Part shown: positions 1,392 through 5,988 of the stretch, piece by piece
Position numbering within the stretch: the first letter of the stretch is position 1
Layout of the letters: every line of letters begins with the position of its first letter
Origin: a virus
Lineage: Duplodnaviria > Heunggongvirae > Uroviricota > Caudoviricetes
IMG/VR virus record: IMGVR_UViG_2617271049_000015
Span: 1-17,868 of that record
Reading direction: 5' to 3' (one strand)
Length of the DNA stretch: 17,868 nucleotides
Program-made: the position numbers and the translations under genes
Notes under the pieces: generated by a model
What the model was told of the DNA's origin: nothing
Databases searched by the model: none
The model's input: only the letters and a program-made list of their open reading frames with translations

Positions 1392-1466
1392 GGTTACCTC
1401 TGCTTTTTGAACGCATGTCACGTAACTTCTTAATGTGTTCTGCCGTTTCGATCTCTTCTGCTATCT

Positions 1467-1727
1467 GTGCCCACATTCGAGAAATGGTGTGAGTTGACTG
1501 AGCAGAAACCTGTCGGATGGGTGCGTGATGCTATGAAAGAAGCGTATGACGGATGCCGCGACGCCATGCTTCAGGGTGCCGAAAAAGCCGAGTCGCCCAC
1601 CACCATGCAGACCGCGCCAGCCCTAGATTCTTCGCCAAAAATTTCCGAGTCGCCCGTCAGCAACTCTCCGGTGATTCCGGATGGTTGGGTGCTGGTTCCT
1701 AAGGAGCCAACTCCAGAAATGCGTTAG
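1467..1727 (+). pseudogene. Remnant ORF (GTG start, no SD), possibly the 3' fragment of a deleted early gene
   Basis: 86-codon open frame with no recognisable ribosome-binding site; lies where the immunity/replication module has been lost; no family recognised. Confidence 0.25.
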
Positions 1728-1886
1728 GCGTACCATCAGGCGCAGGAAGAGTGTGAAGATGGCGGTAGATTATGGAGCCCAGACCACCAATGGAAGGCCA
1801 TGATCGCAGCAGCACCGCAGCAGGAGGCGAAGTGATTATGTCGTGACAGCATAATTGCGATGTCAACGATAAGCAGAGGTTTGAAA

Positions 1887-2081
1887 ATGAAATCACAATC
1901 ACCAGTGCAGCATGAAGTTAACATCGACGGCAAAGAGTATGTTGTCACAGTAGTCCAAACCGGCAAGTCAACGTGGAGGGCATGGGGAGATTCCTGGGGG
2001 CGCCATATAGTCGAAACAGGTTCTAGCGAACATAGCGCGCTTTCTCATTGGAAAGCAAAAGCTTTAGTTATGAATGGGTAG
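1887..2081 (+). CDS. Hypothetical small protein (64 aa)
   Basis: ATG at 1887 with AGAGG SD 7 nt upstream (an in-frame ATG at 1860 lacks an SD); hydrophilic, Trp-rich; no family recognised. Confidence 0.45.
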   Translation: MKSQSPVQHEVNIDGKEYVVTVVQTGKSTWRAWGDSWGRHIVETGSSEHSALSHWKAKALVMNG

Positions 2082-2104
2082 CGCGGAAACTTTGAAGGTA
2101 TAAT

Positions 2105-2130
2105 CCCCTCAAATAATCGAGGGGGTTTTT
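2105..2130 (+). terminator. GC stem-loop (CCCCTC-8 nt-GAGGGG) plus T5 that overlaps the SD of the next ORF; a TATAAT hexamer sits at 2099-2104
   Basis: Inverted repeat 2105-2110 / 2119-2124 followed by TTTTT ending at 2130; start codon at 2131. Could be a terminator, an RBS-occluding hairpin, or the leader of a transcript starting from the TATAAT. Confidence 0.35.
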
Positions 2131-2640
2131 ATGTCTGGTTGGGATAACGGTATAGATGCAGTTTCTGCGATTGCAGCTATCGCATCTGCGGTAGCAACTT
2201 ATTTAGCATGGCGATCCTCAGAAGCTAGCAGGGCCACATCCGAAAAAGCTTTGCAGTTGCAAGGAAAGCAGTATTTGTACGAGACATTAAAAGCTTGCGC
2301 TGAGAGAGCGAATTCATACTCAAAAGGAAAGAAAGGGGCTGACTGGAGCTTTCATGACGCAGCCAATATTGTTCGATGTTTGAACATGGCAATGGGGAGC
2401 ATAATAAATTACTCAGATACCAACAATCAGGATGCAATGAAAGGTCTGAAGCAATTCTTTATTAGCCAATTAAACATGGAGCTTTTTGAAGAGCTCAACT
2501 ATGAGGTTGGGCCTGATGCCTTCTTTCACGGAGAGGAGCTAACCAGCATGACGAGCGATATTTACTCGCAGTGGTTAAACATTATTTCATTCTTTAACCT
2601 CATGATTGTCACAGATGATGACCTCGCCGATGAAACATAG
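2131..2640 (+). CDS. Hypothetical membrane-anchored protein (169 aa), strain-specific moron
   Basis: ATG preceded by GAGGGGG SD; one N-terminal hydrophobic helix (IDAVSAIAAIASAVATYLAW) followed by a ~140 aa soluble domain with acidic C-terminus; looks more AT-rich than flanking phage genes; not part of the K-12 DLP12 layout as I recall it. Confidence 0.7.
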   Translation: MSGWDNGIDAVSAIAAIASAVATYLAWRSSEASRATSEKALQLQGKQYLYETLKACAERANSYSKGKKGADWSFHDAANIVRCLNMAMGSIINYSDTNNQDAMKGLKQFFISQLNMELFEELNYEVGPDAFFHGEELTSMTSDIYSQWLNIISFFNLMIVTDDDLADET

Positions 2641-2729
2641 CTTGATTGATTTTCCATAATCAACCCGCCATAATCATGTCATCGGAGCCTGAACAACTCC
2701 GGTGACTTCTGCGCTAAACGGGGACGTTT

Positions 2730-2831
2730 ATGCGCACATACAATCCAAACTCTCTTCTCCCTTCACAGATGCAGAAATGCACCTGCGTTTTTTTGCATCC
2801 AGCGTTTGATCTCTGCGGAGGTGAAGCGTGA
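2730..2831 (+). CDS. ylcH: Small Cys-containing protein (33 aa), YlcH-like
   Basis: ATG at 2730; [33 protein letters not shown]; stop overlaps the GTG start of ybcN (GTGA); position matches ylcH upstream of ybcN in DLP12. Confidence 0.5.
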
Positions 2832-3283
2832 ACCTCCCACAAGATGGTATCAAATTGCATCGCGGTAACTTCACCGCTATCGGTCGGCAGATCCAGCCTT
2901 ATCTGGAGGACGGCAAATGCTTTCGCATGGTGCTTAAACCGTGGCGCGAGAGACGCAGTCTTTCCCAGAATGCACTCAGCCACATGTGGTACAGCGAAAT
3001 CAGTGAATACCTCATCAGCAAGGGTAAAACGTTCGCCACTCCAGCTTGGGTAAAAGATGCTCTCAAACACACATATCTCGGTTATGAAACCAAAGACCTG
3101 GTTGATGTCGTAACCGGTGATATCACCACTATCCAGTCGTTACGCCATACCTCCGATCTTGATACCGGAGAGATGTATGTCTTCCTGTGTAAGGTTGAAG
3201 CCTGGACGATGAATATTGGCTGCCACCTGACTATTCCGCAGAGCTGCGAGTTCCAGCAGCTCCGCGACAAACAGGAGGAGTAA
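2828..3283 (+). CDS. ybcN: NinB-family recombination protein (151 aa)
   Basis: GTG start with GGAGGTG SD; RSLSQN motif shared with lambda NinB; sequence matches my memory of DLP12 YbcN. Confidence 0.9.
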
Positions 3284-3736: not shown

Positions 3737-4095
3737 ATACTTACCACATCACACTACCCTGGCCTCCGAGCAATAACCGCTATTACCGCCATAATCGCGG
3801 GCGCGCACACATCAGCGCAGAAGGGCAGGCATACCGCGATAACGTCACCCGAATCATTAAAAACGCAATGCTGGATATCGGCCTGGCTATGCCAGTGAAA
3901 ATCCGTATTGAGTGCCACATGCCGGATCGCCGTCGCCGTGACCTGGATAATCTGCAAAAGGCCGCTTTTGACGCACTCACCAAAGCAGGTTTCTGGCTGG
4001 ATGATGCTCAGGTCGTTGATTACCGCGTTGTGAAGATGCCTGTTACCAAAGGTGGGAGGCTGGAACTGACCATCACCGAAATGGGGAATGAATGA
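3733..4095 (+). CDS. rusA: Holliday-junction resolvase RusA (120 aa)
   Basis: GTG start overlapping the ybcO stop (GTGA); [20 protein letters not shown]... matches RusA; the supplied ORF at 3670 is an upstream extension. Confidence 0.92.
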
Positions 4096-4232
4096 TGTTT
4101 GAGTCTTATATGGCAGAGCGTCTTCGCCGCCGCTGGGTGCGCCTGCGCTTATATCGTTTTCCTGGTTCTGTTTTGACCGATTACCGGATACTGAAGAATT
4201 ACGCCAAAACCCTGACAGGAGCAGGAGTATGA
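4092..4232 (+). CDS. ylcG: Small basic protein (46 aa), YlcG-like
   Basis: ATG overlapping the rusA stop; [23 protein letters not shown]...; position between rusA and Q as in DLP12. Confidence 0.6.
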
Positions 4233-4317
4233 AGTCAGAGATAACAATCAACTAATACTGTTTTGTTGATTTTTGCTTGTAATTGGCGTTCTGGTCTGAT
4301 TTTTGTGGAGTAAGTTG

Positions 4318-4701
4318 ATGCGTGATATTCAGATGGTTCTTGAGCGTTGGGGAGCGTGGGCGGCTAATAATCATGAAGATGTGACCTGGTCGTCCATTGC
4401 CGCCGGTTTTAAGGGATTAATTACTTCAAAAGTAAAATCTCGCCCGCAATGTTGTGACGATGACGCGATGATCATTTGCGGGTGCATGGCCCGTCTGAAA
4501 AAGAACAACAGCGATTTGCACGATTTATTAGTAGATTATTATGTAGTCGGTATGACATTCATGTCACTGGCAGGTAAGCATTGCTGCTCTGATGGTTATA
4601 TCGGGAAAAGGTTACAGAAGGCTGAGGGTATAATTGAAGGGATGTTAATGGCATTAGATATCCGGTTAGAGATGGATATCGTTGTTAATAACTCTAATTA
4701 A
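4318..4701 (+). CDS. quuD: Q-like late-gene antiterminator (127 aa)
   Basis: ATG at 4318 with GGAG SD 8 nt upstream (TTG at 4303 is an in-frame extension); Cys-rich zinc-binding region [12 protein letters not shown]; position immediately before the late region. Confidence 0.85.
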
Positions 4702-4890: not shown

Positions 4891-5988
4891 TTAGAACTGG
4901 TAAACCAGACCTACAGCAACGATGTCATCAGTGCTTACACCGAGTGCTTTAGTGAAGTCATTTTTGTCAAGCAGGTTGATTTTGTAATCAACGAAAGTAG
5001 ACATATTTTTGTTGAAGTAATAGGTTGCACCTACATCAACATATTTGACTAAGTCCTGATCGCCCCATACTCCAAGATCCTTACCTTTAGATTGCAGGTA
5101 AGCAACGGACGGACGCAGACCGAAATCGAACTGATATTGTGCAACAGCTTCGAAGTTTTGAGCTTTATTAGCAACGAAGTGATCAGCAAATACAGTCATA
5201 TTCTGGGTTTCAGAATAGGTAGTGGCCAGGTAAATGTTGTTAGCGTCATATTTCAGACCTGCGGCCCAAACTTCTGCATTTTTACCGGAAGCAAATACTT
5301 CAGGAAGAACTTTCCCTGCATTAACTTGAGTGTCGGTACGATCAGATTTCGCATAAGTTGCACCGATACCGAATCCTTCGTATTCATAGGTAGCAGAGAA
5401 ACCGAAGCCATCACCGTTACCTTCAGTGTAGTTATCGAAATCGCTACGATCGTTTTTGCCTTGGTACTGAGCAGCAAAGTTCAGACCATCAACCAGACCA
5501 AAGAAGTCGTTGTTACGATAGGTTGCAACACCAGTGGTACGACCAGTCATGAACACATCTGTTTGGGTCCAGGTATCGCCACCGAATTCTGGCAGAACGT
5601 CAGTCCACGCACCGATGTCGTATGCTACACCGTAGTTACGGCCGTAATCGATTGAGCCGTAGTCACCGAATTTCAGGCCTGCAAATGCAAGACGGGTTTT
5701 GTCTTTGGAGGAACCTTGAGATTCAGCGCGGTTGCCTTTGAATTCATATTCCCACTGACCGAAACCAGTCAGCTGATCGTTGATTTGGGTTTCACCTTTG
5801 AAGCCAAGACGGGCATAAGTAGTATCACCATCATCTGCATCATTAGAGGAGAAGTAGTGCTTAGCATTAACTTTCCCGTACAGATCCAGCTTGTTACTGT
5901 CTTTATTATAAATTTCAGCTGCCTGAGCAGACATCGCCATCAGTACTGATGCAGCTACAGCAGAAATTGCCACTGTTAATTTTTTCAT
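4891..5988 (-). CDS. nmpC: OmpC/OmpF-family general porin NmpC, intact (365 aa)
   Basis: ATG at 5988; signal peptide [23 protein letters not shown]; porin C-terminus ending in F; uninterrupted reading frame. Confidence 0.93.

What the first reader, a model, noticed from the sequence alone, without database searches (positions are those of the whole stretch)
1860..2640. Strain-specific moron in the prophage variable region: membrane-anchored 169-aa protein, with a small upstream partner ORF
Between xis and the conserved nin genes, where K-12 DLP12 carries other cargo as I recall, this window has two ORFs with good ribosome-binding sites and no family I recognise. The 169-aa product has one N-terminal TM helix and a soluble domain, and looks more AT-rich than its neighbours. 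Prophage cargo slots like this often hold superinfection-exclusion or abortive-infection genes, so this is the best candidate here for an undescribed phage-defence or host-modulating function.
Basis: partly seen in the sequence, partly recalled or inferred. Interest (0 to 1): 0.6.

Follow-up and report, generated by a model that had tools for sequence, protein, structure and literature searches.

The report
Uncharacterised membrane-anchored lambdoid prophage cargo gene
The 169-residue gene is a real accessory gene of lambda-like prophages that probably makes a small inner-membrane protein of unknown, possibly anti-phage, function, and the small gene in front of it is a separate gene rather than its partner.

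Summary
Both ORFs are real genes. The 169-aa ORF (2131-2640) matches PHROG 1779 (function unknown) end to end and nothing in Pfam, NCBIfam, PADLOC, PDB or BFVD. Its family is small, with 36 representatives among 1.84 billion proteins, all 150-180 aa apart from fragments and one 288-aa protein.

In about 100 loci the gene sits in early operons of lambdoid prophages, always co-oriented. It is usually the last gene before the first nin gene. Every member examined has one N-terminal hydrophobic helix rich in small residues, with charge flanks that predict N-out/C-in. This helix is among the best-conserved parts of the protein. It is followed by an all-helical domain with no catalytic signature, and most members end in an acidic DLxD tail.

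The small ORF is 64 aa and starts at 1887, not 1860. It is under purifying selection and folds confidently, but it is not a partner. It occurs upstream of different cargo, and most family members lack it.

The position next to xis results from an internal prophage deletion. A conserved hairpin with a T-run lies directly before the ATG. No defence function is shown.

My best guess (about 0.3) is a one-gene membrane exclusion or abortive-infection effector. An early lytic host-modulating role is nearly as likely. Interest is moderate to low.

The parts
2131..2640 (+). 169-aa cargo gene, a member of phrog_1779 (function unknown). It has a predicted single N-terminal membrane helix (residues about 8-26, N-out/C-in), an all-helical cytoplasmic domain and an acidic C-terminal tail (TDDDLADET).
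   Evidence: ORF. PHROG match E 2.5e-77. Homologues: 29 clusters and 36 representatives. Hydropathy and charge flanks. AF2 model all-alpha, pLDDT 75-93 over residues 41-160. Identical DNA in 25 complete E. coli genomes.
1887..2081 (+). Independent small gene of 64 aa. The predicted fold is four beta strands plus a C-terminal helix. Function is unknown.
2099..2130 (+). Left boundary element. TATAAT (2099-2104) abuts and partly forms a 9-bp hairpin (2102-2127, AATCCCCTC/GAGGGGGTT), followed by a T-run that ends at the ATG. The Shine-Dalgarno sequence GAGGGGG is the 3' arm of the hairpin.
   Evidence: Terminator-like site. MFE -14.2 kcal/mol: and for the longer 56-nt stretch. The hairpin is kept, with compensatory changes, in 11 of 12 variants across family clades of 49-100% identity (CCCCTC/GAGGGG versus CCCTTC/GAAGGG; AAT/GTT versus ACT/AGT).
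1467..1835 (+). Dead 3' remnant of a 268-aa gene ending in a PDGW motif. The gene is intact in strain N25. The deletion or recombination junction lies at about 1456-1462, and a nonsense change (GAG to TAG) at 1725-1727.
   Evidence: A weak DUF551-type tail is recorded for related neighbours.
2646..2736 (+). Right boundary of the slot, which belongs to the ylcH/ybcN leader and not to the cargo. It holds a promoter-like TTGATT-N17-CATAAT and two hairpins with conserved loops and covarying stems.
   Evidence: Homology to most E. coli genomes starts here.

Best explanation
**What is shown.** The 169-aa gene is a stand-alone accessory (cargo) gene of lambdoid temperate phages of Enterobacterales. 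It fills a swap slot bounded on the left by a conserved terminator-like hairpin and on the right by the conserved leader of the first nin gene.

**What is inferred about the protein.** Its product is probably a bitopic inner-membrane protein:
- A short acidic N-terminus faces the periplasm.
- One membrane helix has a conserved face of small residues (S/A/G at about 9 of 12 consecutive positions).
- A non-enzymatic helical domain of about 130 residues and an acidic tail lie in the cytoplasm.

**Proposed mechanism (inferred, not shown).** It acts alone as a membrane-level exclusion or abortive-infection effector. The cytoplasmic domain would sense or bind a factor of an infecting phage. The small-residue helix would then self-associate or engage a membrane protein, and this would perturb the inner membrane or block a step of infection.

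**The neighbouring gene.** The 64-aa gene upstream is a separate gene that happens to flank the slot in one lineage.
For: **Real, selected protein family**
- The first search found 29 clusters at E down to 1e-105.
- Thirty-six representatives were found among 1.84 billion proteins. The full-length ones are 150-180 aa, apart from one 288-aa protein.

**Stand-alone gene**
- No neighbour is conserved across clades. The upstream gene is the 64-aa gene, Rha, or a gene like the 201-aa Enterobacter protein in L012. The downstream gene is YbcN, NinB, DUF1367 or theta.
- Distant members sit in the pL operon after N or near recombination genes.

**Accessory status**
- This allele is in 26 of 5426 complete E. 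coli genomes and the 47%-identity allele in 181. The adjacent ybcN leader is in 3315.

**Membrane helix**
- The best 19-residue window scores Kyte-Doolittle 1.5-2.5 in all 17 members. The N-flank has 0-1 K/R and the C-flank has 2-5 K/R.
- The helix is among the most conserved segments. Its mean column entropy is 1.60, against 2.07-2.61 for the soluble domain beyond residue 45, and 62% of its residues are A/G/S.

**No enzyme signature**
- Conserved positions are mainly structural: A, L, W, F, I, P, one N and one S.

**Company in the region**
- PD-Lambda-1 lies 3.2 kb upstream in PhiR26_1 and in 11 IMG/VR loci.
- Pyocin S and an AAA_15 ATPase lie next to distant members.

**Survival in decayed prophages**
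- The ORF is intact in this window, in strain 2020CK-00188, and in loci L017 and L022, where the neighbouring theta gene is truncated.

**Functional precedent**
- Published work describes prophage proteins with a conserved N-terminal hydrophobic helix that execute abortive infection at the membrane (Bab, bioRxiv 10.1101/2024.11.07.622273).
Against: - No phenotype data exist for any member. Literature searches for the accession and the PHROG number found nothing.
- PADLOC (2023) has no match.
- In the 93 loci tabulated and the gene tables, the gene is co-oriented with the early operon. In contrast, the identified defence or toxin cargo nearby (PD-Lambda-1, AAA_15, pyocin S) lies on the opposite strand.
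- In this clade the gene sits directly behind a terminator-like hairpin that sequesters its own Shine-Dalgarno sequence. No sigma-70 promoter passed the scan upstream of it. Expression from a repressed prophage is therefore unproven.
- The TATAAT hexamer is partly hairpin stem and covaries with the 3' arm, which argues against reading it as a -10 box.
- Only about 7-11 residues would face the periplasm, which is awkward for blocking DNA entry from outside.
- Within this window the cassette is identical in DNA to that of strain N25. Its intactness here therefore says nothing about selection.
- The membrane prediction rests on hydropathy alone. AF2 gives the helix pLDDT below 50.
Confidence: 0.3

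Rival explanations
1. It is an early lytic-cycle accessory protein. It would be transcribed from pR (or pL) only after N-type antitermination reads through the upstream hairpin. It would then act at the inner membrane for the phage's own benefit. Possible roles are host takeover, interference with division or a protease, counter-defence, or exclusion established during lytic growth.
For: - The gene is always co-oriented with the early genes and tightly packed among them.
- A terminator-like hairpin with a T-run, conserved with compensatory changes, lies directly upstream in several clades.
- No convincing sigma-70 promoter was found upstream in this clade.
- The gene occurs in viable, propagated phages PhiR26_1 and PhiR5_1.
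- Members occur at two different early-operon positions: before nin, and in the pL operon.
Against: - The gene is dispensable for lambdoid phages in general, since about 4% of E. coli genomes carry it against 61% for the neighbouring ybcN leader.
- In the Rha-linked clade it follows a strong hairpin with a T-run and a 190-nt AT-rich spacer containing promoter-like hexamers, which is a moron-like layout.
- It stays intact in prophage remnants that have lost pR.
Confidence: 0.3
2. It is a latent pore-former that works like HeLo, HeLL, Bell or Babybell cell-death domains. The N-terminal small-residue helix would be sheathed by the helical bundle in a soluble resting state. A trigger would release it to insert into the membrane and kill the infected cell.
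For: - The architecture matches: a conserved N-terminal hydrophobic helix plus a small helical bundle, encoded in a prophage.
- UniProt's automatic name for the Hafnia member is 'Fungal N-terminal domain-containing protein'. I read this as the HeLo-like N-terminal domain of fungal STAND proteins, from memory.
- The Bab paper states that homology within this superfamily is almost limited to the N-terminal helix.
Against: - hhalign of the family profile against the HET-S HeLo domain gives probability 0.16%. The query sequence was verified as PDB 2WVN.
- In the Pfam scans at E up to 10, no HeLo or HeLo-like model appeared among the 25 of 47 matched families that were listed for the 33 members, nor for the five members scanned individually.
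- There is no amyloid-type motif and no conserved adjacent sensor gene.
- The charge flanks fit a constitutive N-out/C-in anchor.
Confidence: 0.12
3. It forms a two-gene module with the 64-aa upstream ORF, for example a toxin-antitoxin or sensor-effector pair.
For: - The pair is adjacent, 49 nt apart, in this window, in the 12 E. coli loci shown and in all 8 Klebsiella loci shown.
- The small gene is a real gene: dN/dS is 0.11-0.44 and the AF2 model has pLDDT 89.9.
Against: - An 81%-identical copy of the small gene is followed by a theta-like gene and a different 160-aa gene.
- More than 60 of the 93 loci have the 169-aa family gene without the small gene. These include an 88%-identical Enterobacter copy.
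- A terminator-like hairpin separates the two genes.
- In strain S51 the 5' half of the small gene is replaced while the 169-aa gene is unchanged.
Confidence: 0.04

Closest known systems
PHROG 1779 (phage orthologous group, function unknown)
   Same: Full-length profile match: residues 3-167 against profile positions 2-169 of 169, E 2.5e-77. It is the same protein family.
   Different: The group carries no functional annotation, so membership explains nothing about mechanism.
Prophage inner-membrane superinfection-exclusion proteins, such as P22 SieA (PMC10883804), and in general HK97 gp15 and T4 Imm (the last two from my own knowledge)
   Same: It is a small protein (SieA is 162-164 aa) encoded by a temperate phage of enterobacteria. 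It is predicted to sit in the inner membrane, has no enzymatic motifs, and acts alone (for SieA).
   Different: SieA has three predicted membrane helices and a conserved FxRYPxEAxxFNK motif. This protein has one helix, a large cytoplasmic domain and almost no periplasmic part. There is no sequence relationship, since the Pfam scan was empty at E up to 1. Expression in the lysogen has not been shown.
Bab (Babybell) and the Bell, HeLL and HeLo membrane-targeting cell-death domains (bioRxiv 10.1101/2024.11.07.622273)
   Same: It is prophage-borne in E. coli. It has a conserved N-terminal hydrophobic helix rich in small residues, followed by a short helical bundle. It is a plausible membrane effector of abortive infection.
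   Different: There is no detectable homology to HET-S HeLo and no HeLo-type match in the Pfam tables returned. It has no C-terminal amyloid motif and no adjacent sensor such as Agp. It ends instead in an acidic DLxD tail.
Morons of lambdoid phages (Hendrix/Juhala concept; PMC3594210)
   Same: It is a single extra gene of lower GC than its flanks, present or absent between conserved genes. It has sharp boundaries and is preceded by a terminator-like hairpin.
   Different: An own promoter is not demonstrated. Only a -10-like hexamer is present, and it doubles as hairpin stem. No terminator-like site directly follows the gene.

Membership tests
PHROG 1779 | Significant full-length match to the family profile | tested here: met
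   E 2.5e-77, 259.5 bits, residues 3-167 against profile positions 2-169 of 169.
Known anti-phage defence systems (PADLOC-DB v2.0.0) | Match to any defence-protein model | tested here: not met
   No family at E up to 1 for either ORF. As a positive control, PD-Lambda-1 from locus L002 scores E 1.9e-198.
Moron (autonomous transcription unit in a phage genome) | Variable presence between conserved flanking genes | tested here: met
   This allele is in 26 and the second allele in 181 of 5426 genomes, against 3315 for the adjacent ybcN leader. Other loci carry different cargo at the same position.
Moron (autonomous transcription unit in a phage genome) | Own promoter upstream and terminator downstream | tested here: inconclusive
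   No sigma-70-type site passes the scan upstream. TATAAT at 2099-2104 lacks a -35 box and is part of the hairpin stem. The Rha-linked clade has promoter-like hexamers in a 190-nt AT-rich spacer. No terminator-like site lies directly after the stop codon.
Superinfection-exclusion membrane proteins (SieA, SieB, Imm types) | Sequence membership in a described Sie family | tested here: not met
   The Pfam scan at E up to 1 was empty. The Pfam scan of 33 family members gave only scattered chance-level hits.
Superinfection-exclusion membrane proteins (SieA, SieB, Imm types) | Inner-membrane location | tested here: inconclusive
   Hydropathy and the positive-inside rule fit one N-out/C-in helix in all 17 members. 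This is prediction only.
Superinfection-exclusion membrane proteins (SieA, SieB, Imm types) | Expressed from the repressed prophage and blocks superinfecting phage | not testable with these tools
   Needs RNA-seq or 5'-RACE of lysogens and phage challenge.
HeLo / HeLo-like / Bell / Babybell cell-death domains | Detectable sequence or profile homology to the family | tested here: not met
   hhalign against HET-S(1-226) gives probability 0.16% (sequence verified as 2WVN). No HeLo or HeLo-like model appears in the returned Pfam tables at E up to 10, though only 25 of 47 matched families were listed. UniProt's 'Fungal N-terminal domain' name for P0037 was not reproduced.
HeLo / HeLo-like / Bell / Babybell cell-death domains | Conserved N-terminal hydrophobic (pore-lining) helix followed by a helical sheath | tested here: inconclusive
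   The helix is present and is among the most conserved segments, and the rest of the protein is all-helical. Whether the bundle cups the helix cannot be read, because pLDDT is below 50 for residues 1-35.
HeLo / HeLo-like / Bell / Babybell cell-death domains | C-terminal amyloid signalling motif shared with an adjacent sensor gene | tested here: not met
   No neighbour is conserved. The C-terminus is an acidic DLxD tail.
Two-gene operon with the 64-aa ORF | Consistent co-occurrence of the two genes | tested here: not met
   The small gene occurs with theta-like cargo instead. The 169-aa family gene occurs without it in most loci.
dsRBD-like or HicB-like small fold (64-aa protein) | Significant structural match | tested here: inconclusive

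The most novel reading that the evidence does not exclude
The family is a previously unrecognised, stand-alone, one-gene cell-suicide or exclusion effector of lambdoid phages. A conserved N-terminal helix rich in small residues would oligomerise in the inner membrane. It would be held in check by the cytoplasmic helical bundle and the conserved acidic DLxD tail. This would be a functional analogue of the HeLo/Bell/Babybell executioners, but with no amyloid switch and no separate sensor.
Probability: 0.12. Interest if true: 0.65.

Novelty: new member of a known kind. Interest (0 to 1): 0.35.

Why it matters
If the protein excludes or aborts phage infection, it would add a compact single-gene membrane effector to the prophage defence repertoire. 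It would also mark the slot just before ninB as a place to mine for more such genes, because the slot has sharp and recognisable boundaries. If it is instead an early lytic factor, it would be a new membrane-directed host-takeover function found in about 4% of E. coli genomes. In either case the present evidence defines a clean, testable candidate and not a discovery. Uncharacterised single-gene cargo of this sort is common in lambdoid prophages.

Tried and rejected
**Searches that found no informative relative**
- Pfam, NCBIfam and PADLOC on both ORFs found nothing.
- The Pfam scan of 33 family members gave only scattered chance-level hits.
- A profile search against PDB sequences found nothing below E 0.19.
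- Foldseek against BFVD found nothing below E 0.2.
- The afdb50 library was unavailable.
- Literature searches for WP_000017329, phrog_1779 and PhiR26_1 returned no papers.
- Rfam found nothing in 1800-2900.
- tblastn of the 64-aa protein against deposited phages found no match.

**Hypotheses tested and rejected**
- HeLo homology was tested by hhalign and rejected.
- UniProt's 'Fungal N-terminal domain' name for a Hafnia member could not be reproduced.
- The partner or toxin-antitoxin idea for the 64-aa ORF is rejected on distribution.
- TATAAT at 2099 as a promoter is doubtful, because it pairs and covaries as hairpin stem.
- A 160-aa protein that replaces the family gene in L027 has an RxxxxH motif by eye, but no HEPN family match.

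**Technical failures**
- The search for related loci with the broad alignment failed because no stretch was conserved enough.
- MAFFT and RNAalifold misaligned the downstream hairpin. Per-sequence folding was used instead.
Full report
**Setting**

The window is a DLP12-type defective lambdoid prophage. It contains:
- intD at 1-1164 on the minus strand, followed by a xis-like ORF;
- on the plus strand ybcN (2828-3283), ninE, ybcO, rusA, ylcG and a Q gene;
- an intact nmpC/ompD-type porin gene on the minus strand (4891-5988).

The finding lies between the xis side and ybcN.

**The observation**

- *The 169-aa ORF.* It lies exactly at 2131-2640, with GAGGGGG 5-11 nt before the ATG.
- *The small ORF.* It runs 1860-2081 in frame, but all homologues are 64 aa and begin at the ATG at 1887. 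That ATG has an AGAGG 8 nt upstream, and the 1860 ATG has no Shine-Dalgarno sequence.
- *Base composition.* The 169-aa gene is 43.1% GC. Its flanks are 56.6% and 50-52%, but the window mean is 43.3%.

**Why the cassette lies next to xis**

No complete E. coli genome of 5426 carries the window's junction. Homology to intact prophages begins at about 1456-1462. In strain N25 the same DNA has 7 differences in 1385 nt, none in either ORF. There it follows P, ren, an ea22-like gene and a 268-aa gene, and it precedes ylcH and ybcN.

In the window only the last third of that 268-aa gene remains, and it carries a GAG-to-TAG change at 1725. An internal deletion has therefore removed the immunity and replication regions. 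Because the cassette DNA is identical to N25, its intactness here says nothing about selection.

**What the 169-aa protein is**

It matches phrog_1779 (function unknown) over its full length, E 2.5e-77. It matches nothing in Pfam, NCBIfam or PADLOC.

*Family size and range*
- The family has 29 clusters in the 5.8-billion-protein index.
- A profile search of 1.84 billion representatives found 36 proteins. The full-length ones are 150-180 aa, apart from one 288-aa protein.
- Named sources are Escherichia, Klebsiella, Enterobacter, Serratia, Hafnia, Citrobacter, Kluyvera, Phytobacter and Scandinavium.
- Among 50,697 deposited phage genomes only PhiR26_1 and PhiR5_1 carry it, at 44-46% identity. 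IMG/VR yielded 79 viral contigs.

*Structure*
- The AlphaFold model is all-alpha. pLDDT is 75-93 over most of residues 41-160 and below 50 for residues 1-35 and 159-169.
- Foldseek against BFVD gives nothing below E 0.2.
- A profile search of PDB sequences gives nothing below E 0.19.

*Conserved features*
- Conserved positions across the broad alignment are mostly structural residues, plus N61 and S33. I see no catalytic constellation.
- All 17 members examined have one N-terminal hydrophobic 19-residue window with Kyte-Doolittle 1.5-2.5. The preceding flank has 0-1 K/R and the following flank has 2-5 K/R. This predicts N-out/C-in.
- This helix is among the most conserved segments. Its entropy is 1.60, against 2.07-2.61 for the soluble domain beyond residue 45. 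It is 62% A/G/S, and nine positions are at least 85% small residues. That is unusual for a passive anchor. It suggests specific helix-helix contacts.
- Most members end in a conserved acidic tail, (V/A)T(D/E)xDLxD.

**Genomic behaviour**

In 93 loci the family gene is always co-oriented with the early genes, and in most it is the last gene before the first nin gene (YbcN, NinB or DUF1367). In some loci a theta-like (HolE/Hot-type) gene lies between them. The upstream neighbour depends on the clade:
- the 64-aa gene, only in the clade at least 95% identical to this allele;
- Rha in the 47% clade, often with PD-Lambda-1 on the opposite strand 3.2 kb upstream;
- a gene like the 201-aa Enterobacter protein in L012, in other clades.

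Distant members sit in other places:
- in the pL operon just after N;
- among recombination genes near xis and int in Hafnia;
- after replication genes, next to an AAA_15 ATPase or a pyocin S gene;
- in a decayed remnant beside a truncated theta gene.

No partner gene is conserved. This allele is in 26 of 5426 complete E. coli genomes and the Rha-linked allele in 181. The ybcN leader next to it is in 3315.

**The small gene is not a partner**

- An 81%-identical copy is followed, at the same spacing, by a theta-like gene and an unrelated 160-aa gene.
- An 88%-identical copy of the 169-aa gene in Enterobacter has no small gene.
- In strain S51 the 5' half of the small gene has been replaced while the 169-aa gene is unchanged.

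**Slot boundaries**

*Left boundary.* TATAAT (2099-2104) runs into a 9-bp hairpin (2102-2127) followed by a T-run that ends at the ATG. The Shine-Dalgarno sequence is the 3' arm of the hairpin.

The same element precedes family genes of 49-100% identity and also the theta cargo of L027. The hairpin folds in 11 of 12 variants. Compensatory changes include CCCCTC/GAGGGG to CCCTTC/GAAGGG, and AAT/GTT to ACT/AGT.

The last three bases of TATAAT pair and covary, so I read the hexamer mainly as stem and not as a -10 box. The element looks like an intrinsic terminator at the end of the replication and ea22-like block. I did not test whether it is the counterpart of lambda tR2.

*Right boundary.* This is the stop codon. 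From 2646 onward lie a conserved TTGATT-N17-CATAAT and two hairpins with conserved loops and covarying stems. They belong to the ylcH/ybcN leader.

**Mechanism**

*Shown:* this is a real, selected, stand-alone accessory gene in a recombination-prone slot.

*Inferred:* it encodes an inner-membrane, non-enzymatic protein whose conserved small-residue helix and cytoplasmic bundle act through protein contacts.

*My best guess (0.3):* a one-gene exclusion or abortive-infection effector at the membrane. The support is indirect:
- the company it keeps in the region;
- the conserved helix;
- its survival in remnants;
- the precedent of Bab, a prophage protein whose conserved N-terminal hydrophobic helix executes abortive infection (bioRxiv 10.1101/2024.11.07.622273).

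*The nearly equal rival (0.3):* an early lytic accessory function. The gene is always co-oriented with the early operons and sits behind a terminator-like hairpin that also hides its ribosome-binding site. No promoter was found for it in this clade.

*A HeLo/Bell-like latent pore-former (0.12):* this is attractive by architecture, and a UniProt automatic name hints at it. Homology was tested and not found. There is also no amyloid motif and no sensor neighbour.

**Comparison and novelty**

The family is already catalogued as a PHROG, but no function is assigned to it and I found no paper on it. It is not a member of any described Sie, Abi or defence family that I could test.

It most resembles small prophage inner-membrane exclusion proteins such as P22 SieA (162-164 aa, three membrane helices; PMC10883804). 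It differs from SieA in topology and sequence.

I file it as a probable new member of a known kind: prophage membrane accessory or exclusion proteins. Interest is moderate to low because no function is established and such cargo genes are common.

Noticed in passing
window 2646-2736: Directly after the stop of the 169-aa gene lies a promoter-like TTGATT-N17-CATAAT (2646-2674), followed by two hairpins. The first is at 2678-2706 with loop CCTGAACAA, and the second at 2710-2736 with loop GGGGAC. The second overlaps the ylcH start codon. Across diverged lambdoid loci the loops are conserved while the stems covary. There is no Rfam match. It may be an undescribed regulatory RNA or leader of the nin operon.
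   Followed up: partly
window 2099-2130, and loci L012, L043, L045, L058-L067 and L027 just upstream of the cargo ATG: A conserved TATAAT-hairpin-T-run element with compensatory stem changes marks the left edge of the cargo slot in many lambdoid prophages, whatever cargo follows. It looks like a terminator that also serves as a recombination boundary.
   Followed up: partly
L027 5246-5973 and L028 5246-5503: In other prophages the same slot, downstream of the 64-aa gene, holds a DNA polymerase III theta-like (HolE/Hot-type) gene. In L027 and L030 a 160-aa protein with an RIRNNLLH (RxxxxH) motif follows it. No HEPN or other family match was obtained.
   Followed up: partly
L058-L064, L066, L067 and L014 (downstream of the family gene); L022-L026: The 169-aa family gene and theta-like genes repeatedly sit side by side. 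L062 has two diverged family copies flanking a theta gene. The reason for this association is unknown.
   Followed up: no
L119 (E. coli 2020CK-00188), 3777-4497: An independent prophage deletion joins the gam region to about codon 5 of the 169-aa gene, yet an ORF of the same length is still annotated. This is a second remnant, after the window, that has lost the immunity and replication regions but keeps this gene and the nin genes.
   Followed up: partly
window 1456-1470: The deletion junction shares a short identical stretch (TATCTGTGC, 1462-1470) between the DUF4222-gene side and the 268-aa gene of intact prophages. This suggests recombination through microhomology.
   Followed up: partly
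window 4891-5988 (minus strand): There is an intact 365-aa OmpC/OmpD-type porin gene at the nmpC position. From my own knowledge, the K-12 DLP12 copy is interrupted by IS5. PhiR26_1 has the same gene annotated as OmpD.
   Followed up: no
window 10905-11103 (+): This is the only Rfam match at gathering threshold in the window: IS009 (RF02111), 224 bits.
   Followed up: no
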